Source: Catajapyx aquilonaris
Taxonomy: Eukaryota
Assembly (NCBI GenBank): GCA_000934665.2
Contig: JYFJ02002148.1
Location: 1-62,567, forward strand
Length of the DNA: 62,567 bases
Direction of reading: 5' to 3'
Both the position numbers and the translations under genes were made by a program. The notes beneath the pieces are model-generated. The model was not told the DNA's origin. It was given only the letters and a program-made list of their open reading frames with translations, and did not search any database. Shown here in pieces: positions 9,755 through 34,522 of this stretch. Numbering within the stretch: position 1 is the first letter of the stretch; every line of letters starts with the position of its first letter.

Positions 9755-11719
9755 TCATTCATGTTTTCCATCTTCGGGAAGGACAGCAGCAGGACAACCT
9801 AAACATTTCTTACGGAAGGGAATAATTTTACATGTCACACTACGCGACTTGCCAACATATTGATGGTAAAGTTCTCCCAAGAAGACAATCAACCCAACAA
9901 TGCTTCCAGTCAAGAGAATCAGGAAGGGACCTTCCACATGATCCCAGGTGAGCCGGACATTTTCATCTTCAAGTTCGTACCAATTGTGGAATATTTTTTC
10001 TTTGGCAGCAGAAATCAACAGACGATGCTCTTCAATACTCAGCCGAAGGTTCTCCAGACCAATGCTGTTGAAGACGTGCATCCAGTGGTCAATGTTCTCA
10101 GCCAAGATGTTGTTCTTCAGAACAATCAGTGAGGTGTGGACGATGGCCAGTGTGTCTGAGGATGTGAAGGTCTCAGCATTCCGGTATACTCGGGCGTAAT
10201 ATGCGACATCCTTCAAGACAGCATCAGACTCGAGTATCACAACATCGTCTGTCAGGATGTCTTCATGGCGCATCTCTATCCCGCTCACGACACGGATTTT
10301 ATCCAGAAAGTAGGCGTATGTATCACGGAATTCGCTCGCTGCTTCTTCCATGAACTCTTTTAGTGCTGGCGACGTTTCTATGGAGAAACTTGACTGAGTC
10401 AGTTCTTCAATGTTTTTGGGTATTTTTTCCACGGGAGGAAAAATCATGATGTCGTACAGCTTGCTTTCGTAACAAGTGCAAAATATCATGCAGAAATATA
10501 TCCAAAACGCGAGAAACATTCTGCATGAAGGAGATGTTGGTGAAGGAGGGTGTTGATCGACAATGTATCTGGCCATGAATTTAAATATCTCCAGAACAGA
10601 ATTAAAAGGAGAAACCATTCCATGTCGGTTGTGAAACTTGGAAATAAATGACACGCATCCAACTGCAAGCAAAAATGATGCAAAGAAAAAGGACCACGAT
10701 CCAATAGTGTAAGGCAACAAAAGAATTAAAGGTGTTATTATAGGGTGAGGCTTACGTGCAATGAAAGTGAATCTGTATGCATCATGAGGAGTGGCACATT
10801 CAAACACTTTGTAAATCAGGTCCAGCACTGGAACCTTTGGTACGAAGGTCAGTTTGCCGGATATAAATTCTTCCATCAGTTCGAGGCTTTTGCTCATATC
10901 AGAAATTATGGCGTCGACATCTATATACTTCATCTCCCAGTGGAAATTCATTCCTTTGCCCAAGAAGCACATGTGGTAGTCACTTTTGAATATGCTGCAC
11001 GCACTGTCGCTCATATTCCACAAGTAAACACCTTCCAGACGTTTTCCATGTAGGTCTTTTGCATAGTCTTTGAACAAACTGTTCTCAGACACTGATTCGA
11101 TCTGTGGTTCTCCTTGGTCGCAGAAGAAGCACGCCGAGTGTGCCTTGAGAGCACCGTTGGCTCCTCCTGTGCTCAGCGACACCTTGTACTTGAGCAGCGA
11201 GGCCGGTTTGTCCAGCATGAAATCCGGATGAGTCGAGTCCCGTATCCAGAACACGAACCGGTCCTTTGTCTTCCTCACTCCGAGCATCCCTTCGTCCGGG
11301 TCCAAAATGATGTCCATCATGTCCTCGTAGGTGTCCTGGCATGTCGCAACCATGTGCACCAGACACTTGGATGCGCGGTATGGCTCTCTGAACACGGCCG
11401 CATTGTCTCTAGATGTCGGTTGGCAATCCCAGGTGCTCTGAGAGCTTGTCCTGATGATCACGGGTCGTCCAGCAGATGACATGTTGGACAGGAGTGTGTC
11501 CATACTCTGAGGGATGGGTCCGTTCCAGTCGTGGGTGATGGCCAGTGGACACTCCATGTCCATGACCAGGTCATGTCCAAGAATATAATTGACAAACTGA
11601 GGGATCCGCTTGGCAGCAGCATTTTCAGGTTTTAAAGTCGCAAGACCCGATGCAATGCTGACAATGGAGAAAAGAACCACTGCTCTCATCAATACCATTT
11701 TGAATTCAATCCATCGCAT
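9755..11719 (-). CDS. Divergent ionotropic receptor IR-1 (intronless; A-type leader, X-type body)
   Basis: 654-aa ORF, likely start M at 11698. Signal peptide, M1 (LLLPYTIGSWSFFFASFLLAVG), pore segment (RYIVDQ), M3 (RMFLAFWIYFCMIFCTCYESKL) and M4 (LTWDHVEGPFLILLTG..FLGE) give iGluR/IR topology. Confidence 0.9.
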   Translation of the reverse strand: MRWIEFKMVLMRAVVLFSIVSIASGLATLKPENAAAKRIPQFVNYILGHDLVMDMECPLAITHDWNGPIPQSMDTLLSNMSSAGRPVIIRTSSQSTWDCQPTSRDNAAVFREPYRASKCLVHMVATCQDTYEDMMDIILDPDEGMLGVRKTKDRFVFWIRDSTHPDFMLDKPASLLKYKVSLSTGGANGALKAHSACFFCDQGEPQIESVSENSLFKDYAKDLHGKRLEGVYLWNMSDSACSIFKSDYHMCFLGKGMNFHWEMKYIDVDAIISDMSKSLELMEEFISGKLTFVPKVPVLDLIYKVFECATPHDAYRFTFIARKPHPIITPLILLLPYTIGSWSFFFASFLLAVGCVSFISKFHNRHGMVSPFNSVLEIFKFMARYIVDQHPPSPTSPSCRMFLAFWIYFCMIFCTCYESKLYDIMIFPPVEKIPKNIEELTQSSFSIETSPALKEFMEEAASEFRDTYAYFLDKIRVVSGIEMRHEDILTDDVVILESDAVLKDVAYYARVYRNAETFTSSDTLAIVHTSLIVLKNNILAENIDHWMHVFNSIGLENLRLSIEEHRLLISAAKEKIFHNWYELEDENVRLTWDHVEGPFLILLTGSIVGLIVFLGELYHQYVGKSRSVTCKIIPFRKKCLGCPAAVLPEDGKHE

Positions 11720-11995
11720 CGGTTGTACGACCGTCTCTTCCTACACCATCCGTAAAACTGTACAGTTGTGTTAGTTTCGATCCGAAAATCGCCCAAGAGA
11801 ATTGTTAATTACTGAACTCCCGTCAACAATTCTGAGTAAACCTTACCGGGAGGAAACAAAGGTAACCTACATGATCAAACGACTCTCGCACAAGGTCTCA
11901 TCGATTGAATCCTTGGAAATGAATCGTTACTTATTAGCACCATGGATTATTCCAGGTGTCGAGTGCAGAGTTACGCAATGGCTAGAACCAGTTAT

Positions 11996-13903
11996 CTAAG
12001 TGTAACATTTCAGGTCACGGCTTCGTCCCTTGGGAAAACTTGTCATACACGGTTTTAGAGCACATAACAGTTCTCCCAAGAAGGCAATCAGAGAAGTTAT
12101 GCTTCCAGTCAAGAGAATCAGGAATGGACCTTCCACATGATCCCAGGTGAAACGGACATGATCATCTTCAAGTTCATACCAACTGTTGCGCAATTTCTTC
12201 TTGGTAGTCATTATTAAGCGACGATATTCCTGCCTGCTCCGGCGAAGGTTCTCCAGACCAATGCCATTGAATACATGCGTCCAGTGGTCAATGTTCTCTG
12301 CATAGATGCTGTCCTTCAGGACAATCAGTGAGCTGTGGATGAGAGCCAGTGTGTCGGAGGAAATGAAGGTCTCACCATTGCGGAAGAGTGTGGCGTAATA
12401 GGCGACATCATTCAAGACCTCGTCGGACTCGAAGATTACGACGTCAGCTGTCAGGATGTCATCGTAGTTCCTTTCGACATAGCCTGGCAGGACACGTACT
12501 TTGGACAGAAAATCGGAGTACATGTCTCGGAACTCCTTGCCTGCTTCTTCTAGGAACATTTTCACTACTCGCGTTGTTTCTATGGAGAAACTTGAATGAG
12601 TCAGCTCTTCAATGTCCCTAGGTATTTTTTCAACTGGAGGAAAAATCAGGACATTGAAGAGTTTGCTTTTGTAGCAAGTGCAAAATATTATACAGAAATA
12701 TATCCAGAACGCGAGAAACATTCTGTAGGAAGGAGATGTGGGTGAGGGAGGGTCTTGCTCGACAATGTATTTCGCCAGATATTTAAAGATTTGTAGAACA
12801 GATTTAAAGGGAGTGAACATTCCATGCCTCTTGTGAAACTTGGCAATAAATGCGAAAACTCCAACTGCAAGCAAAAATGATGCGAAGAAGAAGGACCACG
12901 ATCCAATAGTGTAAGGCAATGCCAAAATTAAAGGTGTTATTACCGGACATGGCTTACGAGCAATGAAAGTGAATCTCCATACATCATGAGGTGTGGCACA
13001 TTCAAACAGTCGGTATATCAGGTCCAGCACAGGGGCCTTTGGCAGGAAAGCCAATTTTCCGGTTCTGAAACCTTCCATCAGTTCGAGGGCACTCCCAATA
13101 TCGGAAAGGATTGCATTGAAATCGACCTTCGTGATACGCCAATGGAAATTCATCACTTTACCCAAGAAACAGATGTGATTATCTAATGTGTTCAAGCTGC
13201 TGCATTCTTCGTCGCTACTATACCACATGTACACACCATCCAGACGTTTTCCATGTAAATCATTTGCATTATCTCTGAACATGGCTGAGCCAGACACTGA
13301 TTCGATCTGTGGTTCTCCTTGGTCGCAGAAGAAACACACCGAGTGTGCCTTGAGAGCACCGTTGGCTCCTCCTGTACTCAGCGACACCTTGTACTTGAGC
13401 TGCGAGGCCGGTTTGTCCATCATGAAATCCGGATGAGTCGAGTCCCGTATCCAGAACACGAACCGGTCCTTTGTCTTCCTGACTCCGAGCATCCCTTCGT
13501 CCGGGTCCGAAATGATGTCCATCATGTCCTCGTAGGTGTCCTGGCATGTCACAACCATGTGCACCAGACACTTGGATGCGCGGTATGGTTCTCTGAACAC
13601 GGCCGCATTGTCTCTAGATGTCGGTTGGCAATCCCAGGTGCTCTGAGAACTTGTCCTGATGATCAGGGGTCGTCCAGCAGATGACATGTTGGACAGGAGT
13701 GTGTCCAGACTGTGAGGGATGGGTCCGGCCCAGTCGTGGGTGACAGCCAGTGGACACTCCATGTCCATGACCAGGGCATGTCCAAGAATCTTGTTGACAA
13801 ACCGAGGGATTAGATCGCCTCCATGATTTTGTTGTGTCAGAGTCACTAGACCCGATGCAATGTTGGCAAAGGAGAAAACAACCACTGCTAACATCAACAC
13901 CAT
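11996..13903 (-). CDS. Divergent ionotropic receptor IR-2 (intronless; A leader, X body)
   Basis: The ORF track starts at a GTG (13972). The ATG homologous to the paralogs' start (MVLML) is at 13903. Same IR motifs as IR-1. Confidence 0.9.
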   Translation of the reverse strand: MVLMLAVVVFSFANIASGLVTLTQQNHGGDLIPRFVNKILGHALVMDMECPLAVTHDWAGPIPHSLDTLLSNMSSAGRPLIIRTSSQSTWDCQPTSRDNAAVFREPYRASKCLVHMVVTCQDTYEDMMDIISDPDEGMLGVRKTKDRFVFWIRDSTHPDFMMDKPASQLKYKVSLSTGGANGALKAHSVCFFCDQGEPQIESVSGSAMFRDNANDLHGKRLDGVYMWYSSDEECSSLNTLDNHICFLGKVMNFHWRITKVDFNAILSDIGSALELMEGFRTGKLAFLPKAPVLDLIYRLFECATPHDVWRFTFIARKPCPVITPLILALPYTIGSWSFFFASFLLAVGVFAFIAKFHKRHGMFTPFKSVLQIFKYLAKYIVEQDPPSPTSPSYRMFLAFWIYFCIIFCTCYKSKLFNVLIFPPVEKIPRDIEELTHSSFSIETTRVVKMFLEEAGKEFRDMYSDFLSKVRVLPGYVERNYDDILTADVVIFESDEVLNDVAYYATLFRNGETFISSDTLALIHSSLIVLKDSIYAENIDHWTHVFNGIGLENLRRSRQEYRRLIMTTKKKLRNSWYELEDDHVRFTWDHVEGPFLILLTGSITSLIAFLGELLCALKPCMTSFPKGRSRDLKCYT

Positions 13904-15177
13904 TTTGAATTCCCGGATCTCTGTTGTATTTCCAGACTGTCCATTCCCACGCATTGTCTGAAAATGTGCCACTGTTTATCTCGTGTATACGGAATCGTAC
14001 AAGAGAATAGTTGATTACACGTATTACAGCAGAGTCGGTCAACAATTCTGTGAAAATATTTGCGACACACAGAGTAACTCCTACACATGTCACATACTAT
14101 GTATATCAAAGGAATCATGTTCAATGTCCCATCAATGTTGTTGCCGACTGAATTCCTGGAAACGAGTCGTCATTATTGATTATTATTATTATTGATTTGA
14201 GTTCTCAAATGTTATGCAGTATGCAATTCTGACTCACCATGTACCCTTCCCGAACCGGATGACAAATGGAGCCAAGTCATAGGGGCTGCCTCCAAATGAA
14301 AATGTATTATATAGACTAGGGTCACACAACAATACTCATCCGTTGCCCTTCCTCCCCTCCTATAGAATTGATTGCTGTTTTGGTCCGGATGAGACACTCC
14401 GGATGACACCCCAGTGGATTATTCGATTCTGACACCCCCAAAAACCCTCAGAGACAGACATACTCCAGAGACAACCGGAGTTAGTTTACAAAAAAAAGGA
14501 GACAGAAGGGTAGGGGAGGTCGACATTAATATTTCAAGGGATGTAGGCCATTTAGTGCGTGAGTATGCAAACTGTCCTGGATCCCAGTGGTCCCCAAAGG
14601 GCCTGGGCGACGGCAAGTAGAGCAATTGCAAGGAAAATGAAAATTCCAACCCCCTCCGACTCTGGCCCCGGGGCCAAAAAACCGGGCTGCTCTAATCCCA
14701 AATGCAAAACAAGAGGAGAGAAAAAAAGTTCGTTTTTGCATGCAAAGGGACCTGAGGACACAGCGACTGGAAAAAAGAGGTACAATCACGACTGTTGCCA
14801 TGTCACAAGTTAGGACCCGATCTTAGATGCATTAAAATTGGTAGGCTGGATTGGGGGTTGTAAGACTTATAATGAATAATTTAAAAAAAATGGATTGTAC
14901 CAAATCTGTTTTTTGTGGACGGAAATGTCGTTTTAGGGAAATGTTGAAATGCATTAGTTAAGTCATAAATAAATTAAGCAGGTTTTTATAGTAATTTGAA
15001 ATCATACAGCAAGCCTTACATTCCGAATACCTTGTCATTAGAAATTAATATTTTTATTCAAAATAATGACACATTAGATGCGTAGAAAAATAGATCGTCT
15101 GCACACAGGAAAATCCACAAAGTTAAATTTTGGCAGCTTGCTTACAGCAAAAAAAGTATTATTTTTAAATCTACTGC

Positions 15178-15270: not shown

Positions 15271-15559
15271 GAGAGCAAACGGCGGCCTGGTAGCATTAGA
15301 AATAAGTGCAGTGCTTATTTACCAACCAGCACATGCAGAGAGCATAATCGTTGATATTGCCAATCGTGCAAGCTGCGCGAAGTGTGGTGCGTACTCCGTT
15401 GCGCTCGTAAAAAATCATATATAGTCGTCACTGATTGTAAACAAGTGAAGGTAGTGAAATCGTAAGGTCAAATCTTCACTGTCGATTTTTTGACTTTTTG
15501 GACTAAGTAATTTGCAAATACTTGCGACACATGCCAGTCAATTCCAGAAGTTCAATCGG

Positions 15560-15765
15560 CTTCAATCGATGGGACCTTGAGCAAGAGTCTTTTGATCACA
15601 CGTGTAGGAGTGACTAACATGTGTCTCAAAGTTTTCAAGAGAATTGTTTACCGACTCGGTAGTAATTAACAATTCTCCCTCACCCACGTCCCTTTCATAC
15701 AGAATGTTTCTATCTGGCGTCATGGATGTATTTTTGTATAATTTTTTGCACATGCTACAAGAGCG
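15560..15765 (+). pseudogene. IR relic: A-type upstream region fused to an M3 fragment
   Basis: 15560-15676 matches the upstream of IR-5 and IR-3 (atcgatgggacct..agaattgtt..aacaattct). It is joined directly to PSPTSLSYRMFL..WMYFCIIFCTCYKS coding sequence, which is frameshifted. Confidence 0.8.
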
Positions 15766-15769
15766 TCTC

Positions 15770-16010: not shown

Positions 16011-17049
16011 ACCCAAGTCAGGTCAAAGTGTTCACTACTACTCCTACTGCTCAACACGGAACATTGCTCTCCAACAACAGAGTGTTTACACACAATGTTG
16101 TATATCGCGAGGTTTTATGAAAACTTTTCTCATGTCCGATTCAGGAAGTGTACAGTAGGCTATATGTCCATTGATTCAATGCCGCTCAATTTTTCAACCT
16201 CGTATTACGACGACCAGCTATACGCTATTTCTTACTTGTCACTCCGCGAGCTCTCTCATTCAATTTTTTCATTAATTGTCTTCCTCATTGCAGGTTTTGC
16301 CAAATTTTGGCTACGGGTGCACTAGTTATAAGAGAGTTATGTGACCTGGGGAAATCTAAACTATTTACCTACAGTACAACCTGTTGAGAAGTACGAAACA
16401 TAATTTACAATCTCATCTAACATGTAGGCCTGCTAATTAAAAAAATATCTCTTGCAGATTTTCCTCAAGCCAATTTATTCGTTGGCGGAATACGATACAA
16501 AAAAGTCAAAAATTAATATATTAAAACGGACGATTTGTCACATGTAGGTTTGCACAAAGACCATTCACCCTTCTTCAAGACGGTATATTATGCACTTGAC
16601 GACTTACTAATCTCCTCTGAGATTGAATTGAGACAGCAAATCTGTGATTTAGCACCGAGTTATCCCTGGTGTGATAAGCGATTTCGACATACGCGTGACG
16701 CTATAGTTTACGAAAGATGTCATAAAACAGCAGCCTGCACAAAGATGTCGTTTCGACATTCCTTATCCGGGTTATCTGGGAATTTAAAAATTACTATCAG
16801 ATATATCTTTCTAAGTGAACTGGATCAAAAACCGAGGAAATAGACTCATCAGTCATAATCTTGCATATTGCGGATACAGTTTTATTATCAGAAGCGATTA
16901 TAAAGTGAAACTTTCCTCAGACAGATATAAACGTGCTTGAGGAAAGTCCCTGTACTGCAAGTAGTAATATATATGCTTATCACTATGAGGTTCACTATAT
17001 AAAATGTGTTACGTGTGTTTCACAGTGAGCAGTTTCCATCACTTTCACA

Positions 17050-17757
17050 ATGACGCAGGTGGTAGCAACAATTGTCTTGACTTTATTGGTGTCATCAGTG
17101 TCATTAGGAGCATCTCCACCTCATCCTTCATCGCATGTGAAACCAGCAGCTCTATCTGAAAGTAAGACTAATATTGTTACCTTCATACAGCGCTATTCAG
17201 GGTGGTCCAAAACGGTTACAAAATCCGGTGAGGCTTAATTTCAAAAGATTTTCTGATTCATTGCGATGTATTTCAGAGGCTTGCAAGGTGCCCTTTCAGA
17301 ACATTGGTTCAGGATGCTACTATTTTAGTGGTTCCAACCTGAATAAAAACTGGTGGCAATCTGCTGAGTACTGCAGAATCATTGGAGGAAACCTGCTGAC
17401 CATAGACGATCCTGTTGAAAACCAGGACATTCAGGACTATTTGCTGAGAAGTAAGCTTTTTACAACATTACAGAACAATATATTGTGCCCAAGTTCCGGC
17501 TACAATATTAGTGTTAACTTTCCATAGATTACCCTCAAGGCCACTTCTTCATCGGTGGGTACGACCTTGGTCACGAAGGACTTTGGTATTGGCAGGCAAC
17601 ACTAAAGCCTATTGGATTCACTGACTGGTATCCTGGACAACCAGACAATGCTAGAGGGATTGAAAATTGCTTGGTTCTGGAGACGCAGCATGGATTTCGC
17701 TGGAACGACAGGCCCTGCACCATGACCAGCAACTTTGCATTCATATGTGAAGCTTAG
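17050..17757 (+). CDS. Secreted single-domain C-type lectin 1 (QPD, galactose-type motif), 3 exons
   Basis: Exons 17050-17161, 17277-17450 and 17528-17757 with phase-1 GT-AG introns. Signal peptide, then C..PF..IG..CYYF, W..AEYC..IGGNL, FFIGG.D..EG.W.W, W.PGQPDN..ENC, WNDRPC and FICE. Confidence 0.93.
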
Positions 17758-18039
17758 CTATATGTTGCGTTGTCTATTAACGCTAACTTTAATATCTGTG
17801 GTCGGAAGCTTTGTTGTTAGCGGCATACGTAGCATGCTGGAAAATGTACTATTGAATAAAAGGCACATTCATTTTCAAGGTAATATTCAATTTCAGAGAT
17901 TATTATTAAACGTGGCGTAATATTATGTCGTCTGGGACTTTCAAATTCCGGTTGACATGAGTAGACCAATAACTTATAATGCAGGTTGATCCAATGCACG
18001 TACGTTGATCCAATGCACATCTCCACACTAGTCACCTAA

Positions 18040-18180
18040 TTCACTTGGGATCACGTTGAAGCTTCATTTGTGATACTTATAGGTGGCAGTGGCAGCTTAC
18101 CATTATTGCATTGTTGGGAGATTTGATTTGGTGGTGTGTGAAGCGGCAAAGAAAAGAGAGGTTTCCCAGCAAGAAGTGAA
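18040..18180 (+). pseudogene. IR M4 / C-terminal relic
   Basis: ttcacttgggatcacgttgaagcttcatttgtgata translates as FTWDHVEASFVILIGG. Duplicated at 25487-25623. Confidence 0.75.
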
Positions 18181-18300
18181 AGAACACTGTTAGCGGCATA
18201 TAAAGAATTCCCTCTATAGGAAGTGCGGAGGTTCTAGGAACAAGTTGTTGACATTAATTTTGAAGTCCCTTTGTCCCAGTAGGTACGTGTAAACAGAATC

Positions 18301-18443
18301 CAAGGGGGTAATCACTCGACTGAAAAGTGTACACTGGAGTACCAAATTCAAGGAGTACCACGGAGTAATAGAGTGAGGTGCCTGAGGAGTACTAGGGAGT
18401 ACACCCAGGTGTACACCGGAGTACCGAAGTGATTACCCCCTTG
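18301..18443. mobile_element. 143-bp MITE (CA..TG ends, 8-bp TSD; hAT- or P-like), family M1
   Basis: TIR CAAGGGGGTAATCACT and TSD ACAGAATC (18293-18300, 18444-18451). The empty site is present in the duplicate at ~25734. Confidence 0.92.
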
Positions 18444-18608
18444 ACAGAATCTATCTGTTATTACCTCTCACACACCAAAGCTTCCTCTTGACTTTTGACT
18501 TTGACTGTGAATAATACTGGACGGTACAGTTAACAAACACGCCACTCGGGTGTCAGAGAACCAAGCGCCCATCCTGAGTATCAAAGTTAAGGAAACGAAT
18601 TAGAAACC

Positions 18609-20410
18609 ATGTTGTTTCCTGCATTTGCTGTGTACCTGTGTGTACCTGTGTGCTGTGTGGAGGATATACCTTATTTCGTCAGCAATATCTTGAAACACAA
18701 TCAACTGTGTCAGAGTTACGGCGACCCGACCATAAAGGCCCCGCGCCACACACAATCAACTGGTGAACAAAGAATGTCCACTGTTGATTACCCACGATTC
18801 GGACGGACCCAATCCTCGAGTCTGGACACACTCCTGTCCAACATGTCATCTGCTGGACGACCCCTGGTCATCAGGACAAGTTCTCAGAGCACCTGGGATT
18901 GCCACCCGACATCTAGAGACAATGCGGCCGTGTTCAGAGAGCCATACCGCGCATCCAAGTGTCTGGTGCACATGGTTGTGACATGCCAGGACACCTACGA
19001 GGACATGATGGACATGATTTTGGACCCGGACGAAGGGATTCTCGGAGTGAGGAAGACAAAGGACCGGTTCGTGTTCTGGATACGGGACTCGACTCATCCG
19101 GATTTCATGCTGGACAAACCGGCCTCGCAGCTCAAGCACAAGGTGTCTGTGAGCACAGGAGGAGACGGTGCTCTCAAGGCACACTCGGTGTGCTTCTTCT
19201 GCGACCAAGGAGAACCACAGATCGAATCAGTGTCTGTGATGGACACTTTATTCAAAGACTATGCAAAGGACCTTCATGGGAAGCGTCTGGAAGGTGTTTA
19301 CTTGTGGAGTACGAACGACAGCGCGTGCAGCATTTACGAAAATGAATACCACATGTGCTTCTTGGGCAAGGCAATGAATTTCCAGTGGCTCATGAGATAC
19401 GTCAATTTCGACTACATTCTTGCAGACACTGGCAGAAGCCTTGAACTGATGGAAGATTTCAGATCTGGACAATTGTCCTTCATACCAAAGGCCCCTGTCC
19501 TGGACCTGATATACCAACTGTTTGATTGTACCACACCCCATGATGTGTTAAGGTTCACTTTCATTGCGCGTAAGCCACGTACTGTAATAACACCAATGAT
19601 TTTTATATTGCCTTACACAGTTGGAGCATGGTCATTTTACTGCTCATTTTTTCTGCTTGCAGTTGGATGTATGTCAATTATTGGCAAGTTTCGCGCAAGA
19701 CAGGAAATGTTTTCTCCCTTCAGTTCTGTTCTAAGCATCTGTAAATACATGGGTAGATGCATTGTCGAGCCTCCCTCACCCACATCCCTTTCATACTGAA
19801 TGTTTCTGGTGTAATGGATGTATTTTTGTATAATTTTTTGCACATGCTACAAGAACAGGCTCTACTATATTTTGATTTCTCCTCCTGTTGAAAAAATACC
19901 TCGAGATATTGAAGAACTGAGGCATTCAAGTTTCTCCATAGCAAAGTCACAGGTTGTCAATGTGTTTCTAGAAGGTGCAGTCAAAGAGTTACGTGGTATG
20001 TACGCATACCTCTTGGCCAAAATAAGCGTTATAAAGTGGATAGAGTGGCATTACACTCCCATTCTGACCGATGACGTTGTGATCTTAGAGTCTCACCCAG
20101 TCTTGAAGGATGTCGCCTTTTACGCCCCTCTACGTATATTCAAATGCTGTGACCTTCACATCCTCCGATATTCGGGCCATTGTCCCCACTTCATTGATAG
20201 TTCTCAAGGACAGCATCTATGCAGAGAACTTGGACCATTGGATGCATGTATTCAGCAGCATCGGTTTGGATCATCTTCGGCTGAGTATTCACGAGAATGA
20301 ACTCGCGATATATACTGCAGATGAGAAAAGGCGCCAGAACTGGTATGCACTGGATGCGGAACCGGTGAAATTCTCCCGGGATCATGTCGAAGACCCCTTC
20401 CTGATTCACT
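18609..20410 (+). pseudogene. IR pseudogene (B-type leader, X-type body)
   Basis: 55-nt net insertion near the 5' end plus a 1-nt deletion. AGA>TGA stop at 19797-19799, a second stop shortly after, and a frameshift near 20130. Truncated in M4 at ~20410 by unrelated sequence starting TTAAGGCGAG. Confidence 0.88.
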
Positions 20411-25486: not shown

Positions 25487-25623
25487 TCACTTGGGATCAT
25501 GTTGAAGCTTCATTTCTGATGCTTATGGGTGGCAGATTACCAGGATTTATTGAATTATTGTTGGGAGATTTGATTTGCTGGTGTGTGAAGCGGCAAAGAG
25601 AAGAGAAGTTTCCCAAGAAGTGA
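25487..25623 (+). pseudogene. IR M4 / C-terminal relic
   Basis: Translates as FTWDHVEASFLMLMGGRLPGFIELLLGDLICWCVKRQREEKFPKK*. Confidence 0.8.
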
Positions 25624-25884
25624 AAAAACACTGTTAGCAGCATATAAAGAATTCCCTCTATAGGAAGTGCGAAGGTTCTTAGGAACAAGTTGTTGACATT
25701 AATTTTGAAGTCCCTTTGTCCCAGTACGTGTAAACAGAATCGATCTGTTATTACCTCTCACACACCAAAGCTTCATTTGACTGTGAATAATACTGGACGG
25801 TACAGTTAACAAACACACCGCTCGGGTGTCAGACAACCAAGCACCCATCCTGAGTATCAAAGTTAAGGAAACGAATTAGAAACC

Positions 25885-27702
25885 ATGTTGTTTCCTGCAT
25901 TTGCTGTGTACCTGTGTGTACCTGTGTGCTGTGTGGAGCATATACCTAATTTCATCAACAATATATTGAAACACAATCAACTGATGAGCAAGGAATGTCC
26001 ACTGGCCATCACCCACGACTCGGATGGACCCATCCCTCAGAGTCTGGACACACTCCTGTCCAACATGTCATCTGCTGGACGACCCGTGATCATCAGGACA
26101 AGTTCTCAGAGCACCTGGGATTGCCAGCCGACATCTAGAGACAATGCGGCCGTGTTCAGAGAGCCATACCGCGCATCCAAGTGTTTGGTGCACATGGTTG
26201 TGACATGCCAGGACACCTACGAGGACATGATGGACATCATTTTGGACCCGGACGAAGGGATGCTCGGAGTGAGGAAGACAAAGGACCGGTTCGTGTTCTG
26301 GATACGGGACTCGACTCATCCGGATTTCATGCTGGACAAACCGGCCTCGCAGCTCAAGTACAAGGTGTCTGTGAGCACAGGAGGAGACAACGGTGCTCTC
26401 AAGGCACACTCGGTGTGCTTCTTCTGCGACCAAGGAGAACCACAGATCGAATCAGTGTCTGTGGACAGTGTGTTCAAAGACTATGCAATGGACCTACATG
26501 GGAAGCGTCTCAGAGGTGTTTACATGTGGAATGGTAGTGACGTAGGATGTGCCACTCACTCAGTTTCTGATCACTTGTGTTTCTTGGGAGACGCGCTTAA
26601 TTTTGGTTGGGCGGTTGACAAAGTGGATTTCGATGCCATTCTTTCAGATGTAACCAGAAGCCTTGATTTGATGAGGGATTTTCAGACAGGAAAAGTCGAC
26701 TTTATTCCCAAAGCTCCTGTCCTTGACCTGATCTACCAACTGTTTGATTGCGCAACACCTCACAAAGCGTATAGATTCACCTTCCTTGCACGACAAGCTC
26801 GATCAAAACTTACACCTTTTATTATAGTAATGCCTTTTACACTGGCTTCCTGGTGCATACTCCTCATGTCCTATTTGGTGGCAGTAATATCCTTTGCAAT
26901 CGTGTCCCAGTTTCACAAACGGCAGGGAATTGTAACTCCTTTCAAGTCTGTCTTGCACATTATGAAGCACCTGGGACGGATTATTGTTGAACAGTATCCT
27001 CCATCCCCAACCTCTTCGTCTCTCATGATGTTTCTAACACTGTGGAGTTACTTCTGCCTGATTATCAGTACCGGATACAAGAGCAAGCTGTACGACATTG
27101 TAACGTTCCCACCTCTGGAGAAAGTGCCTAAAAATCTACCCGAGTTGACGAAATCGTCCTTCTCCATCATAATGTCTCGTGTGGTCAACATGTTCATTAC
27201 AGACGCCAACAAAGATTTTCGCGACACTTACGACACTCTTCTTTCCAAAATGAAAGTCGTGCCTTCAGTCTACGACTACTACAATGACATCCAGACAGAA
27301 AATATTGTCATCTTGGAATCCGATTCTGTGTTGAAAGGTGTCGCCTTCTATTCCAACGCCTACAGTAACTTCATGACCTTCATCTTCCCAGACGACTTGG
27401 CCTTCGTCCATGCTTCTCTGATAGTCCTGAAGGACAACATTTTTGCGGAGAACATCAACCATTGGATGCACATCTTCAACAGCATTGGACTGGCATTGTA
27501 TGGAGACAGCATAAGCAACGCTCACTACTGGTTAAAGGTAGAATCGGAGAGATTAAGACACGGGATCAAATCAGGTGATGAAATTGTCCGATTCACTTGG
27601 GATCACGTTGAAGGTCAATTTCTGATCCTTTTTGGTGGATGCTTATCCGGATTTATAGCATTGGTGTGGGAGTTAATTTGTTGTCGTATTCGACAAAAAT
27701 AA
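25885..27702 (+). CDS. Divergent ionotropic receptor IR-4 (B leader, Y body)
   Basis: 605-aa intact ORF. Leader MLFPAFAVYLCVPVCC, body LRGVYMWNGSDVGCATH..., and IR TM motifs. Confidence 0.9.
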   Translation: MLFPAFAVYLCVPVCCVEHIPNFINNILKHNQLMSKECPLAITHDSDGPIPQSLDTLLSNMSSAGRPVIIRTSSQSTWDCQPTSRDNAAVFREPYRASKCLVHMVVTCQDTYEDMMDIILDPDEGMLGVRKTKDRFVFWIRDSTHPDFMLDKPASQLKYKVSVSTGGDNGALKAHSVCFFCDQGEPQIESVSVDSVFKDYAMDLHGKRLRGVYMWNGSDVGCATHSVSDHLCFLGDALNFGWAVDKVDFDAILSDVTRSLDLMRDFQTGKVDFIPKAPVLDLIYQLFDCATPHKAYRFTFLARQARSKLTPFIIVMPFTLASWCILLMSYLVAVISFAIVSQFHKRQGIVTPFKSVLHIMKHLGRIIVEQYPPSPTSSSLMMFLTLWSYFCLIISTGYKSKLYDIVTFPPLEKVPKNLPELTKSSFSIIMSRVVNMFITDANKDFRDTYDTLLSKMKVVPSVYDYYNDIQTENIVILESDSVLKGVAFYSNAYSNFMTFIFPDDLAFVHASLIVLKDNIFAENINHWMHIFNSIGLALYGDSISNAHYWLKVESERLRHGIKSGDEIVRFTWDHVEGQFLILFGGCLSGFIALVWELICCRIRQK

Positions 27703-30918: not shown

Positions 30919-31004
30919 ACAAGCCGACAACTAATTTATTGCAATACAGCCTATTAAGTTGTGTTATAAGTTCAAAAATATATTGATGAACGTTAACATG
31001 AACT

Positions 31005-31395
31005 AACACTGTGGAGTTACTTTTGCGTGATTATCAGCATCGGATACAAGAACAAGCTATTTGAGATTCTAACCTTCCCTCCTCTGGAGAATGTCCCTAA
31101 AAACCTACCATAGTTGACGAAATCGTCCTTCTCCATCGTAACGTCGCGTCTGGTCAACACGTTCATTACAGACGCCAACAAAGATTTTCGAGACAAGTAG
31201 GATTTATTGCATTGTTGTGGGAATTGATTTGTATGAAGCGACAACAAACGCGGATAGTAATGTTTGCCCGGAAGTGCAGAATACTGGAAGCATCACTTAT
31301 GGTGAATATCAGATAGGAACATATTTACCTTAAATAACTTACTGGAAGGATTACGGGATTTGCTGTACTTTTGGGAGAACTGCGCATTGTGCATG
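31005..31395 (+). pseudogene. Collage of IR C-terminal fragments
   Basis: 31005-31195 is a Y-type M3/S2 start with a TAG stop. It jumps to a Y-type M4 end and stop (matching 34400-34530), then to an X-type M4 piece (ctggaagg..tgggagaactg). Confidence 0.8.
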
Positions 31396-31794
31396 TTTAT
31401 AAGAGATAGTCAATATTATGCTTCTACACAATGCGAGATATTTACTTCACATGGTAAGTTCAGTTACTTTGAAGAAAAAAGATATTAATATGTGAAACAT
31501 GTTTATTACCAATGACAAACATTGGGCTTATAAAGTATTCCCTTTTGACAAAGCGTGGACAAGGTTTTGACATACTTATAGTCACTTTGTCCCAGTATAC
31601 GTGTATATGCTACAACGTACTCTATGTATGTAATTAACTGTTACACCTCAAAGCTTCCTTTGACTGTTGAGCATTCTGGACGGTACAGTGTTAACAAACA
31701 CGATACTCGAAAATAACAATTCATTCGAATGTCAAACAACGGGTGTGACAGAGAGTGAAATATAAGGATTCATAAAATTATTATATAAGGAACC

Positions 31795-32330
31795 ATGTGG
31801 TTTTCTGCACTTGCTGTTTACGCCTTAGCCAACAGTACAAGTAATGTATATCTCCAACAAGTCGTAGGGGAGAAAATACCTAATTTCATTTACAATATCT
31901 TGTAAGTGCCGGTGAACACGGAATGTCCACTGGCCATCACCCACGACACGGATAGACCAATCCCTCAGAGTCTGGACACACTCCTGTCCAGCATGTCTTG
32001 TGCTGGACGATCCCTGATAATCAGGACAAGTTCTCAGAGCACTTGGAATTGCCAGCCGCGTATCTATAGAGACTTTCGCAGAAGGTCCCATCGATTGTTT
32101 TCGACTGACGCTTCCTGTAAAATAGTCGTTATCTAGCACCTGGATTTTTATGACTCTCTGAACACTTCCGCATTGTGTCTATTGGCTCTCTGAACACTTC
32201 CTCATTGTCTTGATTGGCTCTCTGAAAACTTCCGCATTGTCTCTATTGGCTCTCTGAAAACTTCCGCATTGTCACTTCCGCACTGTTGCTATATATAGAC
32301 AATGCGGAAGTATTCAGAGAGTCATAAAAA
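31795..32330 (+). pseudogene. 5'-only IR fragment (B-type promoter and leader plus the first part of the shared block)
   Basis: MWFSALAVY..IPNFIYNIL* then VNTECPLAITHD..SLDTLLSSMS..SSQSTWNCQP. It is broken at ~32070 and resumes briefly at 32296-32326. Confidence 0.82.
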
Positions 32331-32403
32331 TGCAGGTGGCAGATAACGACTCTTTTACAGGAAGTCAGTCGAAAACAATCGATGGGACCTTGTGAGAAAG
32401 TCT
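32071..32403. repeat. Inverted repeat (~110-bp arms) enclosing a ~32-bp tandem repeat
   Basis: 32071-~32181 is the reverse complement of 32296-32403. The unit (t)tggctctctgaa(c/a)acttccgcattgtctcta occurs about four times. Confidence 0.85.
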
Positions 32404-32605
32404 TTTGATCTATGTGGCACGTGTATAGGAGTGATTGTATGCGCCACAAAGGTTTCAAGAGAATTGTTAACGGACTCTGCTGAAAAATATTAACAATTCT
32501 GTCGGACAATTTCCGGCTCGTAAGAAGACCCAACTGCACACTTCCGAGCAAGGTGTAGGAAGAGACAGTCGCGGAAGTACAACAGAAGAGATCCAACAAT
32601 TCAAA

Positions 32606-34522
32606 ATGGAGTTGATAAGGGCAGTGATTGTTTTCTCCTGTGCCAGCATTGCATCAGGGCTAGTTACTTTCACAAGTGAAAAGGCTACAGATGAACAAAT
32701 CACTAAGTTTGTCAACAATATTCTCCAAAGTGACCTGGTCATGAATACTGAATGTCCACTGGCTGTCACCCACGACTCGGACAGCCCCATCCCTCATAGT
32801 CTGGACACACTCCTGTCCAACATGTCCTTTGCTGGACGACCCCTGATCATCAGGACAAGTTCTCAGAGCACCTGGGATTGCCAGCCGACATCAAGAGACA
32901 ATGCGGCCGTGTTCAGAGAGCCATACCGCGCATCCAAGTGTCTGGTCCACATGGTTGTGACATGCCAGGACACCTACAAGGGCATGGTGGACAGCATTTT
33001 GGACCCAGACGAAGGGATGCTCGGAGTGAGGAAGACAAAGGACCGGTTCGTGTTCTGGATACGGGACTCGACTCATCCGGATTTCATGCTGGACAAACCG
33101 GCCTCGCAGCTCAAGTACAAGGTGTCTGTGAGCACAGGAGGAGACGGGGCTATCAAGGCACACTCGGTGTGCTTCTTCTGCGACCAAGGAGAACAACAGG
33201 TCGAATCAGTGTCTGAGGACACTTTGTTCAAAGACTATGCAATGGACCTACATGGGAAGCGTCTCAGAAGTGTTTACATGTGGAATGGTAGTGATGTAGG
33301 ATGTGCCACTCATTCAGTTGCTTCCATGCACATGTGTTTCTTGGGAGACGCCCTTAATTTTGGTTGGGCGGTGGATGAAGTCGATTTAGATGCCATTCTT
33401 TCCGATATGAGCAGAAGCATGGATTTGATGCTTGATTTTCAGACAGGAAAAATCGACTTCATTGAGAAAGCTCCTGTCCTGGACCTGACATACCAACTGT
33501 TTGATTGCGCAACACCTCACACTGCGTACAGGTTCACCTTCCTTGCACGACAAGCTCGATCAATACTTACACCTTTTATTATAGTAATGCCTTTTACAAT
33601 GGTTTCTTGGTGCTTATTCCTCACGTCCTATTTGATAGCAGTAATATTCTTTGCAATCTTGTCCAAGTTTCACAAACGGCAGGGAATGCCAACTCATTTC
33701 AAGTCTGTCTTGGATATTATCAAGCACCTGGGAAGAATCATTTTGGAGCAATATCCTCCTTCCCCAACCTCTTCGTCTATAATGATGTTTCTAGCACTGT
33801 GGAGTTACTTTTGCTTGAATATCAGCACCGGATACAAGAGCAAGCTATTTGACATTCTAACCTTCCCTCCTCTGGAGAATGTCCCTAAAAACATACCTGA
33901 GTTGACGAAATCGTCCTTCTCCATCATAACGTCGCGTCTGGTCAACACGTTCATTATAGACGCCAACGACGATTTTCGAGACACTTACGACACTCTTATT
34001 TCCAAAATTAGTGTTGTGTCTGAAGTCCGCGACTACTCCTATGCTATCCTGACAAAGGACATTGTCATCTTCGAATCCGATTCTGACTTGAAAGGTGTCG
34101 CCTACTATTCCAACGCCTACGGTAACTTCAAGACCTTCATCTTCTCTGACGACTTGGCCTTCGTCCATGCTTCTCTGATAGTCCTGAAGGACAACATTTT
34201 TGCAGAGAATATGAACCATTGGATGCTCATCTTCAACAGCATTGGACTGGCATTGTATGACGACAGCGTAAGGAACGATCACTACTGGTTAAACGTAGAA
34301 TCGGCGAGATTAAGACACGGGTTTACATCAGGTGATGAACTTGTGATATTCACTTGGGCGCACGTTGAAGGTTCCTTTTTGATCCTTTTTGGTGGAAGCT
34401 TAGCAGGATTGATTGCATTGTTGTGGGAATTGATTTGTATGAAGCGACAACAGAAGAAGATAGTTAGCCAAGAAGTGCGGAATACTAATGATGAATATCA
34501 GATAGGAACATATTTACCTTAA
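32606..34522 (+). CDS. Divergent ionotropic receptor IR-5 (A leader, Y body)
   Basis: 638-aa intact ORF. Leader MELIRAVIVFSCASIASGLVT, with a body closely similar to IR-4. Confidence 0.9.
   Translation: MELIRAVIVFSCASIASGLVTFTSEKATDEQITKFVNNILQSDLVMNTECPLAVTHDSDSPIPHSLDTLLSNMSFAGRPLIIRTSSQSTWDCQPTSRDNAAVFREPYRASKCLVHMVVTCQDTYKGMVDSILDPDEGMLGVRKTKDRFVFWIRDSTHPDFMLDKPASQLKYKVSVSTGGDGAIKAHSVCFFCDQGEQQVESVSEDTLFKDYAMDLHGKRLRSVYMWNGSDVGCATHSVASMHMCFLGDALNFGWAVDEVDLDAILSDMSRSMDLMLDFQTGKIDFIEKAPVLDLTYQLFDCATPHTAYRFTFLARQARSILTPFIIVMPFTMVSWCLFLTSYLIAVIFFAILSKFHKRQGMPTHFKSVLDIIKHLGRIILEQYPPSPTSSSIMMFLALWSYFCLNISTGYKSKLFDILTFPPLENVPKNIPELTKSSFSIITSRLVNTFIIDANDDFRDTYDTLISKISVVSEVRDYSYAILTKDIVIFESDSDLKGVAYYSNAYGNFKTFIFSDDLAFVHASLIVLKDNIFAENMNHWMLIFNSIGLALYDDSVRNDHYWLNVESARLRHGFTSGDELVIFTWAHVEGSFLILFGGSLAGLIALLWELICMKRQQKKIVSQEVRNTNDEYQIGTYLP

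What the first reader, a model, noticed from the sequence alone, without database searches (positions are those of the whole stretch)
9755..34522. Combinatorial shuffling: two promoter/leader types and two receptor bodies occur in all four combinations
Seen: leader A (MVLxRAVVxFS..SGLVT) and leader B (MLFPAFAVYLC) each have their own distinct upstream region. Body X (LEGVYLW-type, FCTCY, EKIP) and body Y (VYMWNGSDVGCATH, ISTGY, E[K/N]VPKN) are also distinct. The combinations are A-X (IR-1, IR-2, IR-3), B-X (18609 pseudogene), B-Y (IR-4) and A-Y (IR-5). The switch always falls within the shared block. Inference: crossovers in the identical cassette re-pair expression control and leader with ligand specificity, a mix-and-match route to chemoreceptor diversity.
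Basis: partly seen in the sequence, partly recalled or inferred. Interest (0 to 1): 0.85.

Follow-up and report, generated by a model that had tools for sequence, protein, structure and literature searches.

The report
Recombinant receptor genes sharing a homogenised block
A cluster of six glutamate-receptor-like sensory-type genes keeps one 470-base stretch almost identical by copying between the genes, and that stretch has let at least two genes swap their front ends, one of which is now dead, so this is ordinary gene-family recombination and not a dedicated shuffling system.

Summary
Window 9755-34522 carries six intronless iGluR/IR-like genes (five intact, one pseudogene) plus relics. Upstream plus leader group as (PS,IR4) and (IR5,IR1-3). 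Bodies group as (IR4,IR5) and (PS,IR1-3). Each partition rejects the other's tree (AU p 1.7e-196 and 3e-55). Both switches fall within a ~470-bp block that is 93-100% identical in all copies.

The block is kept alike by interlocus gene conversion, not protein-level selection. Its dS is 0.06-0.14 against 0.26-2.5 in the bodies. Its GC3 is 0.67-0.70 against 0.48-0.51. 16 of 28 informative site pairs fail the four-gamete test.

Native pairings were probably A-X and B-Y, because the B spacer carries relics of Y-gene 3' ends. B-X (PS) is a recent 2.85-kb copy of lectin gene plus B leader joined at the block's 3' edge, and it is dead. A-Y (IR5) is intact. A fossil of a displaced B leader plus block nt 1-176 abuts its A-upstream.

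So I infer two germline recombination events, not a combinatorial system. Spanning reads could not be obtained, and an alternative assembly path without chimeras stays formally possible (about 0.1). This is a new member of a known kind, of modest interest.

The parts
9755..11740 (-). IR1, intact intronless A-X gene (ATG 11698, 647 aa). Block at 11554-11086.
   Evidence: ORF. Pfam Lig_chan 38.7 bits. Coordinates.
11996..13975 (-). IR2, intact A-X gene (ATG 13903, 635 aa), head-to-tail with IR1 across a ~300-bp A spacer. Block at 13759-13291.
15558..15764 (+). Relic of a gene: A-upstream joined by an internal deletion to an X-body piece. The piece (15675-15762) is 90.9% identical to PS 19771-19854 and about 82% to IR2 and IR3.
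   Evidence: blastn; alignment; tblastn
16391..18771 (+). B-type upstream segment of PS. It is a copy of 23672-25992 (87-93% by blastn; K about 0.04-0.08 in well-aligned parts). It includes a C-type lectin gene copy (17141-17527), a relic of a Y-gene 3' end (18039-18160), a repeat insertion (18301-18446) and leader B (ATG 18609) broken by a 55-nt insertion at 18695-18749.
18772..19239 (+). Shared block of PS. It has 14 private differences, including a 1-nt deletion at 18818. The switch from IR4-like to X-like lies at its 3' edge (19241/19246).
19240..20475 (+). X-type body of PS, dead: in-frame stops at 19797 and 19812, a 4-nt insertion at 20126, and further frameshifts near the 3' end.
20987..22873 (+). 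IR3, intact A-X gene (ATG 20999, 624 aa). A-upstream from about 20713. Block at 21143-21611.
   Evidence: AF2 model with mean pLDDT 81. Foldseek top hits are GluA2 chains, E about 1e-19.
23672..25992 (+). B-type upstream segment of IR4. It holds a C-type lectin gene in two ORFs (24312-24809 and 24839-25333), a relic of a Y-gene C-terminus (25486-25599, 60% aa identity to IR4 residues 570-605) and leader B (ATG 25885).
25993..27702 (+). IR4 block (25993-26461, only 2 private differences) and intact Y body. The B-Y gene encodes 605 aa.
31003..31341 (+). Fragments of a dead Y gene. The body piece 31003-31195 is 93% identical to IR5 and 88% to IR4. The 3'-end piece is 31196-31341.
31559..32070 (+). 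Fossil 5' end of a B-type gene. It comprises a B-upstream relic (31559-31701, 73%), then leader B and block nt 1-149 (31869-32070, 84% to IR4 25935-26141). An in-frame TAA follows the NIL codons (my reading).
   Evidence: A read-derived contig covers 31968-32593 with 0 differences in X1, X2 and X3.
32055..32418 (.). Palindrome with arms 32055-32182 and 32293-32418 (84-90% complementary), and 32-nt tandem repeats at 32151-32292 derived from block nt ~144-176. The right arm starts with block nt 141-176 in forward orientation (32291-32326) and runs into the A-upstream.
32343..32749 (+). A-type upstream (about 260 bp, sharing conserved motifs with IR1, IR2 and IR3) and leader A of IR5 (ATG 32606).
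   Evidence: dS
32750..34522 (+). IR5 block (32750-33215, 15 private differences) and intact Y body. The switch from A-like to IR4-like lies at 32782-33127. The A-Y gene encodes 638 aa.

Best explanation
The locus is a tandem array of lineage-specific, single-exon, divergent ionotropic-receptor-like (iGluR superfamily) genes. There are two subfamilies.

Native pairings. X genes natively carry a short intergenic spacer plus signal-peptide leader of type A. Y genes carry type B.

The block. A ~470-bp stretch encodes an N-terminal alpha/beta region upstream of the ligand-binding domain. Recurrent interlocus (ectopic) gene conversion keeps it nearly identical in every copy. This is shown by synonymous divergence, GC3 and mosaic sites.

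Two germline recombination events (inferred). The tract is the only long homology shared by X and Y genes, and it served as the substrate each time.
1. Older event. A B-Y gene, a tandem duplicate of IR4, had its 5' end replaced by A-upstream, leader A and the block start copied from an X-type gene. One side resolved by homology inside the block. The other side joined non-homologously and left the displaced B leader plus block nt 1-176 as a fossil directly abutting the new A-upstream. That junction later gained a fold-back insertion. The product is IR5 (A-Y), still an open frame.
2. Recent event. A 2.85-kb piece (lectin gene, B spacer, leader B, block) from the IR4 locus was joined to an X body at the 3' edge of the block. 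The most likely route is unequal crossing-over between the blocks of IR4 and an X gene. The product is PS (B-X), now a pseudogene.

Conclusion. The four leader/body combinations are by-products of concerted evolution in a gene cluster. They are not the output of a dedicated shuffling mechanism. Chemosensory function and promoter differences are inferred from family resemblance only.
For: Family. Pfam Lig_chan hits all 5 intact proteins (E 1e-9 to 2.5e-3; only IR1 exceeds the curated cut-off). The AF2 model has mean pLDDT 81 and its best Foldseek matches are GluA2 and other iGluR chains, E about 1e-19. The nearest library relatives are named iGluR ligand-binding-domain proteins of springtails, all distant.

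Mosaic. Sliding identity, AU tests and breakpoints within or at the block edges.

Conversion rather than protein-level selection.
- Block dS is 0.059-0.142 in all 10 pairs of intact genes. Body dS is 0.62-0.66 (X-X), 0.256 (IR4-IR5) and 1.8-2.5 (X-Y).
- GC3 is 0.667-0.699 in the block against 0.476-0.508 in the body and 0.438-0.500 in the leader. A published case reads the same signature as regional gene conversion (PMC1852091, passages).
- 62 of 472 block columns vary, 8 are informative, and 16 of 28 site pairs fail the four-gamete test.

B is native to Y arrays. A relic of a Y C-terminus lies about 290 bp upstream of IR4's ATG (nt level). The same order (Y 3' end, then B spacer, then leader B) recurs at 31196-32070.

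A is native to X arrays. IR2->IR1 and PS->IR3 are head-to-tail with A spacers.

IR5's A part is younger than the X/Y split. Leader dS to IR1-3 is 0.34-0.60, and 260 bp of non-coding upstream is about 70% identical, against body dS of 1.8 or more.

Fossil junction. The relic aligns to IR4 25935-26141 (84%). 32291-32326 aligns to 26133-26168 (83%) and is followed within about 17 nt by the A-upstream. A contig of the read sets covers 31968-32593 without a difference.

Chronology is coherent. Relic against IR4 is 15-27% different, of the same order as IR4-IR5 dS 0.256. PS/IR4 upstream K is about 0.04-0.08. The 15.6-kb relic is 90.9% identical to the PS body, as expected if one unequal crossover duplicated both.

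Lesions cluster in one gene. PS is broken in both its B part and its X part, while IR4 and IR5 are open throughout.
Against: - No read or contig spanning a whole block with unique flanks was shown. The runs laid are short contigs, and X1-X3 are one sample, probably the one the window was assembled from.
- An alternative ordering of the four inter-block segments would give only A-X and B-Y genes.
- The unequal-crossover model for PS predicts a second copy of IR3 and its downstream spacer to the left of 16391. Neither is there, so a later deletion has to be assumed.
- IR5's A part is no closer to IR1-3 (about 70%) than those are to each other. The donor is therefore not identified.
- dS for the leader rests on about 33 synonymous sites.
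- Constraint at the DNA or RNA level on the block cannot be excluded as a contributor.
- No orthologous cluster from another species could be examined, because no eukaryote genome collection is at hand and no whole genome is held.
Confidence: 0.68

Rival explanations
1. Assembly artefact. The real genome holds only A-X and B-Y genes, and the assembler took the wrong path through the repeated block. Number the pieces between blocks 0 to 4. The order 0-3-1-2-4 gives B(18609)-Y(IR4 body), A(32606)-X(PS body), A-X (IR3) and B(25885)-Y(IR5 body), with no chimera.
For: - The alternative path is a valid linear arrangement (my reasoning from the coordinates).
- No spanning contig was listed, and the contigs are 1.2 kb or shorter on this stretch.
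- The block has identical runs of up to 96 nt (PS against others) and 136 nt (IR5 against IR4).
- The two frameshifts in PS's 5' part cancel, so its 5' part would read through if joined to IR4's open body.
Against: - Identical runs are short enough for reads of 100-150 nt or read pairs to tile across, and the window has only 3 N in 62.5 kb.
- Chronology does not fit one [lectin + B + Y] duplication. Upstream K is about 0.04-0.08 against Y-body dS 0.256.
- The assembled order explains why the B fossil upstream of IR5 is about as diverged from IR4 as the IR5 body is.
- All lesions fall in one gene under the assembled order, but in two half-dead genes under the alternative.
- PS and IR5 carry 14 and 15 private differences spread along their blocks, against 2 in IR4.
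Confidence: 0.12
2. A selected mix-and-match system. The block is maintained as a recombination cassette because re-pairing of promoter/leader modules with receptor bodies is recurrent and advantageous, so many pairings segregate or arise repeatedly.
For: - All four combinations occur within 25 kb.
- Both switches lie in the block.
- The A-Y product is an intact gene, with body dN/dS of 0.45 against IR4.
- X2 and X3 hold a contig that joins an IR5-3'-end-like 80 nt to 31303. This hints at another arrangement or copy.
Against: - Two events explain everything.
- One product is dead.
- The other carries a non-homologous scar, unlike a clean cassette exchange.
- Regional conversion with raised GC3 arises without any such function in other tandem families (PMC1852091).
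- There is no evidence that A and B drive different expression. No RNA holder was listed.
Confidence: 0.08
3. No recombination between subfamilies. Leader A is ancestral to both X and Y, leader B is a newcomer, and the block is identical because of extreme functional constraint, including at synonymous sites.
For: - The block is translated in all copies with dN/dS of 0.12-0.55.
- The region folds as an ordered alpha/beta unit over residues ~110-204 (block-of-10 mean pLDDT 66-91).
- A-Y needs no exchange if A is ancestral.
Against: - B-X still needs an exchange (four-gamete logic).
- IR5's non-coding A-upstream is about 70% identical to those of X genes, while X and Y bodies are saturated at synonymous sites.
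- Raised GC3 and 16 of 28 incompatible site pairs point to exchange.
- The dead relic of the block is 84-89% identical to the live copies. That shows how fast the stretch drifts once it is out of the exchange or selection pool.
- Alternative-frame ORFs in the block are no longer than expected. Synonymous shuffles reach the observed lengths in 14% and 8% of 5000 trials.
Confidence: 0.05

Closest known systems
Divergent (single-exon) Ionotropic Receptors of protostomes, expanded in tandem arrays by non-allelic homologous recombination (Croset et al. 2010, PMC2924276; passages read)
   Same: The genes are intronless and arranged in tandem. They have the iGluR-type channel and S2 region (Pfam Lig_chan) and an iGluR fold. 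The N-terminal region is short, not a full amino-terminal domain. Pseudogenes and relics fit birth-and-death evolution.
   Different: In that paper's text the words 'chimeric' and 'gene conversion' occur 0 times. Here a 470-bp tract is homogenised across two subfamilies and two genes are chimeras. The nearest relatives found are very distant: best E 6e-27, and 0 of the 150 listed best stretches start before profile position 140. The N-terminal block therefore has no relative in that library. Chemosensory expression is untested.
Regional gene conversion in clustered protocadherin variable exons of teleosts (Yu et al. 2007, PMC1852091; passages read)
   Same: Tandem paralogues have one part more than 93-99% identical at the nucleotide level, synonymous sites included, while the rest is diverged. 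GC3 is raised in the homogenised part (54-69% against 38-45% there; 67-70% against 48-51% here).
   Different: There the tract is the 3' part of the exon and is shared within subclusters. Here it is an internal 5'-proximal tract shared across two deeply diverged subfamilies. In addition it has mediated exchange of the flanking 5' modules.
Chimeric chemoreceptor and opsin genes made by recombination between tandem paralogues. Or22ab of Drosophila melanogaster is one case (Shaw et al. 2019, PMC6502086; passages read). Human red/green opsin hybrids are another (recalled, no call).
   Same: The 5' part of one paralogue, with its upstream region, is fused in frame to the body of a neighbour.
   Different: Or22ab arose by a deletion between introns and replaces both parents. 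Here both parental types persist. One chimera is tied to a duplicated 2.85-kb segment and the other to a templated-insertion-like scar.
Interlocus gene conversion among Drosophila IR paralogues (Almeida et al. 2014, PMC4122928; passages read)
   Same: Conversion between IR paralogues has been detected. [quoted passage not shown]
   Different: It was reported there as minor, as a source of bias in turnover rates. Neither a fixed tract shared by a whole cluster nor leader/body chimeras appear in the passages I read. The supplement tables were not read.

Membership tests
iGluR superfamily / variant Ionotropic Receptors (IRs) | Ligand-gated ion channel region (M1, pore, M3, S2, M4; Pfam PF00060) | tested here: met
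   all 5 intact proteins hit Lig_chan over about residues 320-600 (E 1.1e-9 to 2.5e-3). Only IR1 (38.7 bits) exceeds the curated cut-off of 30.8; IR2-IR5 score 30.5, 28.4, 21.5 and 18.1.
iGluR superfamily / variant Ionotropic Receptors (IRs) | Overall fold like solved iGluR subunits | tested here: met
   AF2 model of IR3 with mean pLDDT 81.2 and pTM 0.71. The Foldseek PDB top hits are GluA2, GluK2, GluN and delta-2 chains, E 1e-19 to 1e-16.
iGluR superfamily / variant Ionotropic Receptors (IRs) | S1 lobe recognisable (Pfam PF10613 Lig_chan-Glu_bd) and ligand-contact residues | tested here: inconclusive
   PF10613 was not reported for the window's proteins at E <= 0.01. It is present in 4 of 4 distant relatives scanned, at about residues 245-346. 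Ligand-contact residues were not examined.
iGluR superfamily / variant Ionotropic Receptors (IRs) | IR-type architecture: no full amino-terminal domain, short N-terminal region | tested here: met
   The proteins are 605-647 aa, with about 200 aa before the predicted S1 region. A language-model look-alike of residues 30-215 scored 0.88-0.89, below the tool's 0.9 line, so it is a lead only (arthropod IR N-terminal clusters, PF24576 in 26% of one cluster).
iGluR superfamily / variant Ionotropic Receptors (IRs) | Expression in chemosensory neurons with IR co-receptors | not testable with these tools
   No RNA holder was listed.
Regionally restricted interlocus gene conversion (concerted evolution) | Synonymous divergence in the tract far below that of the flanking coding sequence of the same gene pairs | tested here: met
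   block dS 0.059-0.142 against body dS 0.256-2.5, in 10 of 10 pairs.
Regionally restricted interlocus gene conversion (concerted evolution) | Raised GC3 in the tract | tested here: met
   0.667-0.699 against 0.476-0.508, in 5 of 5 genes.
Regionally restricted interlocus gene conversion (concerted evolution) | Mosaic of variants shared between different copies | tested here: met
   16 of 28 pairs of informative sites show all four combinations.
Regionally restricted interlocus gene conversion (concerted evolution) | Paralogues within a species more alike in the tract than orthologues between species | not testable with these tools
   No related eukaryote genome or whole genome is available. 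Searches of this scan's notes found nothing.
Chimeric paralogues made by non-allelic homologous recombination | Discordant phylogeny on the two sides of a junction that lies in a high-identity tract | tested here: met
Chimeric paralogues made by non-allelic homologous recombination | Flanking duplication or deletion structure expected from unequal crossing-over | tested here: inconclusive
   PS: the duplicated segment 16391-19239 matches 23672-26461, and a relic 91% identical to the PS body lies upstream. The expected second IR3 copy is absent. IR5: the scar fits a templated insertion rather than a reciprocal crossover.
Chimeric paralogues made by non-allelic homologous recombination | Junctions confirmed by molecules spanning them | tested here: inconclusive
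   contigs bridge the fossil junction (31968-32593). No listed piece spans a whole block.
Programmed combinatorial loci (alternative first exons spliced to shared exons, or somatic rearrangement) | Variable 5' exons share one downstream constant part, or recombination signals flank the segments | tested here: not met
   Each gene is a complete single open frame with its own copy of the block and its own body. No sharing of exons is needed or possible. Recombination signals were not searched for.

The most novel reading that the evidence does not exclude
The homogenised N-terminal block may be more than a passive conversion tract. It may be a selected recombination cassette of a lineage-specific IR family. 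By staying identical across otherwise unalignable subfamilies, it would repeatedly let compact promoter plus signal-peptide modules be re-paired with ligand-binding/channel bodies in the germline. Receptor specificities would then move between sensory cell types. On this reading IR5 is a successful product, PS is a failed one, and further pairings segregate in the population.
Probability: 0.07. Interest if true: 0.75.

Novelty: new member of a known kind. Interest (0 to 1): 0.36.

Why it matters
This is a clean, small example of how concerted evolution of one tract creates a bridge of homology between gene subfamilies that are otherwise too diverged to recombine. That bridge lets whole 5' modules (spacer, start codon, signal peptide) change partners. 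The fossil of the displaced 5' end next to IR5 is unusual direct evidence of the direction and mode of such an exchange.

For annotation and phylogeny of receptor families it is a warning. Trees built on whole genes here would be wrong, and the block has to be left out. It does not open a new class of mechanism.

Tried and rejected
- Whole genome: none is held, so copies elsewhere in the genome could not be sought.
- Word-indexed protein search with IR3: no hit at E <= 0.001 among 8000 scored candidates of 343-1094 aa.
- Profile search of 1.84 billion representatives: 465 hits at E <= 0.001, 58 at <= 1e-10 and 0 at <= 1e-30. All are distant and none covers the first two-thirds of the block.
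- A first tree of the leader from a global alignment was meaningless, because the A and B leaders were force-aligned. It was replaced by the alignment with long flanks.
- Sequencing runs: 5 rows from 2 studies, and no RNA holder was listed.
- Laying X1, X2, X3 and X5 on 16300-34700 gave only short contigs. No listed piece spans a whole block, and 3595 pieces were not shown. The joins are therefore neither confirmed nor refuted.
- X5 (second sample, kind unknown) has contigs on IR3 20995-21231, on IR4 25771-26014 and 26899-27717, and none on PS or IR5. At this depth that says nothing.
- X2 and X3 have a contig joining 80 nt like IR5's 3' end to 31303. With 39 letters fitting both sides this may be a graph artefact, and it was not followed up.
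- Overlapping genes as the cause of block conservation: rejected. The 107-aa sense and 130-aa antisense alternative frames are reached in 14% and 8% of 5000 synonymous shuffles.
- Notes of this scan: nothing by place, by sequence or by words.
- Literature: the search 'ionotropic receptors' + 'gene conversion' + 'chimeric' + 'tandem' found 0 papers. Broader searches gave general NAHR and gene-conversion papers, but no description of this pattern among those whose passages I read. Most of the 27 papers were seen only as listings.

Full report
WHAT IS THERE

Between 9755 and 34522 the window holds six single-exon genes of one family.
- IR1 (9755-11740, -) and IR2 (11996-13975, -).
- A broken copy, PS (18591-20475, +).
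- IR3 (20987-22873, +), IR4 (25867-27702, +) and IR5 (32471-34522, +).

tblastn with IR3 and IR4 finds no further member elsewhere in the 62.5 kb, only relics inside this interval.

The five intact proteins (605-647 aa) all hit Pfam Lig_chan, although only IR1 exceeds the curated cut-off. An AlphaFold2 model of IR3, built on 59 aligned sequences, has mean pLDDT 81.2. Its best matches among solved structures are GluA2 and other ionotropic glutamate receptor chains, E about 1e-19.

A profile search of 1.84 billion representatives gave only distant relatives. There were 465 at E <= 0.001 and none at <= 1e-30, and the best stretches cover the channel half. Four of the six I looked up carry names, all iGluR-domain proteins of springtails. 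I therefore file the genes as divergent, IR-like members of the iGluR superfamily. That they are chemoreceptors is an inference from the family.

I aligned the six genes with 1200 nt of upstream and 400 nt of downstream sequence and scanned them in 100-nt windows.

| Region | Pair | Identity | Contrast pair | Identity |
|---|---|---|---|---|
| Upstream + leader | PS/IR4 | 0.85-0.98 | PS/IR3 | ~0.3-0.5 |
| Upstream + leader | IR5/IR3 | 0.61-0.77 | IR5/IR4 | ~0.35-0.56 |
| Block (~470 nt) | every pair | 0.93-1.00 | | |
| Body | PS/IR3 | mostly 0.74-0.93 over the first ~650 nt, ~0.56-0.77 further 3' | PS/IR4 | ~0.5-0.7 |
| Body | IR5/IR4 | 0.77-0.95 | IR5/IR3 | ~0.3-0.7 |

Maximum-likelihood trees and AU tests make this formal.
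- The upstream+leader partition (599 columns) rejects the body topology by 163.5 lnL (p 1.7e-196).
- The body partition (1300 columns) rejects the leader topology by 275.7 lnL (p 3.3e-55).
- The block (472 columns) is indifferent (0.04 lnL).

Diagnostic sites place the switches as follows.
- PS switches between 18774 and 19267, best at 19241/19246, which is the 3' edge of its block (18772-19239).
- IR5 switches between 32745 and 33127, best at 32782/32788, in the 5' part of its block (32750-33215).

WHY THE BLOCK IS IDENTICAL

Block dS is 0.059-0.142 in all ten pairs of intact genes. The same pairs have body dS of 0.62-0.66 (X with X), 0.256 (IR4 with IR5) and 1.8-2.5 (X with Y). Selection on the protein cannot hold synonymous sites, so another process is needed.

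Three further results point to recurrent interlocus gene conversion.
1. GC3 is 0.667-0.699 in the block, 0.476-0.508 in the bodies and 0.438-0.500 in the leaders, in all five genes. Yu et al. read this same signature as regional conversion in fugu protocadherin clusters (PMC1852091, passages).
2. Of 472 block columns, 62 vary and 8 are informative. 16 of the 28 informative site pairs show all four combinations.
3. A dead relic of the first ~150 nt of the block is only 84-89% identical to the live copies. The stretch therefore drifts once it leaves the pool.

The block has long open frames in a second sense frame and in one antisense frame. These are not unusual, because synonymous shuffles reach their length in 14% and 8% of 5000 trials.

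The block encodes residues ~49-204. This is an alpha/beta region ahead of the predicted S1 lobe, with an ill-predicted loop at 83-107. Its role is unknown.

WHICH PAIRINGS ARE NATIVE

The A spacer is the ~250-300-bp gap between head-to-tail X genes (IR2->IR1 and PS->IR3). It carries motifs conserved in IR1, IR2, IR3, IR5 and a relic at 15.6 kb.

The B spacer lies downstream of relics of Y-gene 3' ends. One lies about 290 bp before IR4's start (25486-25599, 60% amino-acid identity to IR4 residues 570-605). The same order is seen at 31196-31341 followed by 31559-32070. PS's copy of the B segment carries the same Y relic at 18039-18160.

So B belongs to Y arrays and A belongs to X arrays. B-X and A-Y are the derived pairings.

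HOW THE CHIMERAS AROSE (INFERRED)

IR5 (A-Y).
- Its A leader has dS of 0.34-0.60 to IR1-3, and its 260-bp non-coding upstream is about 70% identical to theirs. Y and X bodies, by contrast, are saturated. The A module therefore entered after the X/Y split.
- About 550 bp upstream of its start lies a fossil. It comprises a B-spacer relic (31559-31701, 73%), then leader B and block nt 1-149 (31869-32070, 84% to IR4).
- After a 222-nt palindromic and tandem-repeat insertion built from the junction itself, block nt 141-176 follows (32291-32326, 83%). The A-upstream follows within about 17 nt.
- The fossil's divergence from IR4 (15-27%) is of the order of IR4-IR5 dS (0.256).
- I read this as follows. 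A B-Y tandem duplicate of IR4 had A-upstream, leader A and the block start copied in from an X-type gene. The downstream side resolved by homology inside the block. The upstream side joined without homology near block nt 176-200.
- A contig of the read sets covers 31968-32593 with no difference. The fossil junction is therefore in the reads, although these probably come from the sample that was assembled.

PS (B-X).
- Segment 16391-19239 matches 23672-26461 (87-93% by blastn; K about 0.04-0.08 where well aligned). It includes a C-type lectin gene.
- The match stops at the 3' edge of the block, where the body becomes X-type.
- The relic at 15558-15764 holds an X piece that is 90.9% identical to PS's body and about 82% to IR2 and IR3. 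One unequal crossover between the blocks of IR4 and an X gene would duplicate both, so this fits. The model also needs a later deletion of a second IR3 copy, for which I have no evidence.
- PS is dead. It has a 55-nt insertion flanked by a 13-nt direct repeat in the leader, a 1-nt deletion in the block, stops at 19797 and 19812, and further frameshifts.

THE MAIN RIVAL: MIS-ASSEMBLY

The block is a repeat, so the assembly could have taken a wrong path. The order 0-3-1-2-4 of the inter-block pieces would give only A-X and B-Y genes. I could not settle this with reads. The five rows found come from two studies, all are short contigs, and no listed piece spans a block.

Four points count against the rival.
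- Identical runs between PS and any other copy are at most 96 nt, and at most 136 nt for IR5.
- Under the alternative order, the upstream (K ~0.04-0.08) and the body (dS 0.256) of the supposed duplicate units disagree about fivefold in age.
- The fossil upstream of IR5 is explained only by the assembled order.
- Lesions fall in one gene, not in two half-genes.

I give the rival about 0.12.

COMPARISON WITH WHAT IS KNOWN

- Tandem growth of single-exon divergent IRs by non-allelic recombination is established (PMC2924276, passages).
- Conversion among Drosophila IR paralogues has been detected (PMC4122928, passages).
- Regional homogenisation with raised GC3 is described for protocadherin clusters (PMC1852091).
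- Chimeric receptor genes from neighbouring paralogues are known, for example Or22ab (PMC6502086, passages).

What is particular here is the combination. A tract is shared across two deeply diverged subfamilies, two chimeras run through it, and the displaced 5' end is preserved.

My searches found no description of this pattern for IRs. Most papers in those lists were seen only as listings and supplements were not read, so I make no claim of absence from the literature beyond those searches.

VERDICT

Differential promoter function is untested. This is a new member of a known kind. Interest 0.36.

Noticed in passing
window 18142-18755 and 24282-25509: Read-derived word depth is about 3,000-27,000 in X1-X3, against about 20-90 in neighbouring bins. 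High-copy repeats therefore sit in both B-upstream segments. One of them (18301-18446) has copies at 30774-30921, 55544-55660 and 43498-43557.
   Followed up: partly
window 24786-25061, and 7522-7931: An inverted-repeat element lies between the two ORFs that hold the halves of the C-type lectin domain upstream of IR4. The PS-side copy lacks it. Related copies lie at 7522-7931.
   Followed up: no
window 17141-17527 and 24312-25333: Two copies of a C-type lectin gene (Pfam Lectin_C, split over two ORFs at the IR4 locus) travel with the B-type upstream segment.
   Followed up: partly
window 15558-15764: A gene relic in which A-upstream (about -250 to -70) is fused directly to X-body codons ~379-412. 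A 128-aa ORF on the other strand (15562-15948) has no Pfam hit.
   Followed up: partly
window 18695-18749: The 55-nt insertion in the PS leader is flanked by a 13-nt direct repeat. It shifts the frame by +1, and a 1-nt deletion at 18818 shifts it back. The frame from the ATG therefore stays open for 396 codons although about 20 conserved residues are scrambled.
   Followed up: yes
window 34412-34491 joined to 31303: Contigs in runs X2 and X3 (762 nt) join 80 nt matching IR5's 3' end to 31303-31984, with 39 letters fitting both sides. This is either a graph artefact at a short repeat or a sign of another copy or haplotype with a fuller Y gene at the 31-kb relic.
   Followed up: no
window 23511-23607: About 640 bp downstream of IR3 lies a 97-nt stretch that is 79% identical to the sequence just downstream of IR4 (27706-27800). 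It may be another trace of a lost Y gene ahead of the lectin gene.
   Followed up: no
window 21143-21611 (block), alternative frames: A second sense frame (107 aa) and an antisense frame (130 aa) are open across the block in IR3, and similar ORFs occur in the other copies. Synonymous shuffling shows this is expected for the composition.
   Followed up: yes
window 38048-38050: The only three N in the window.
   Followed up: no
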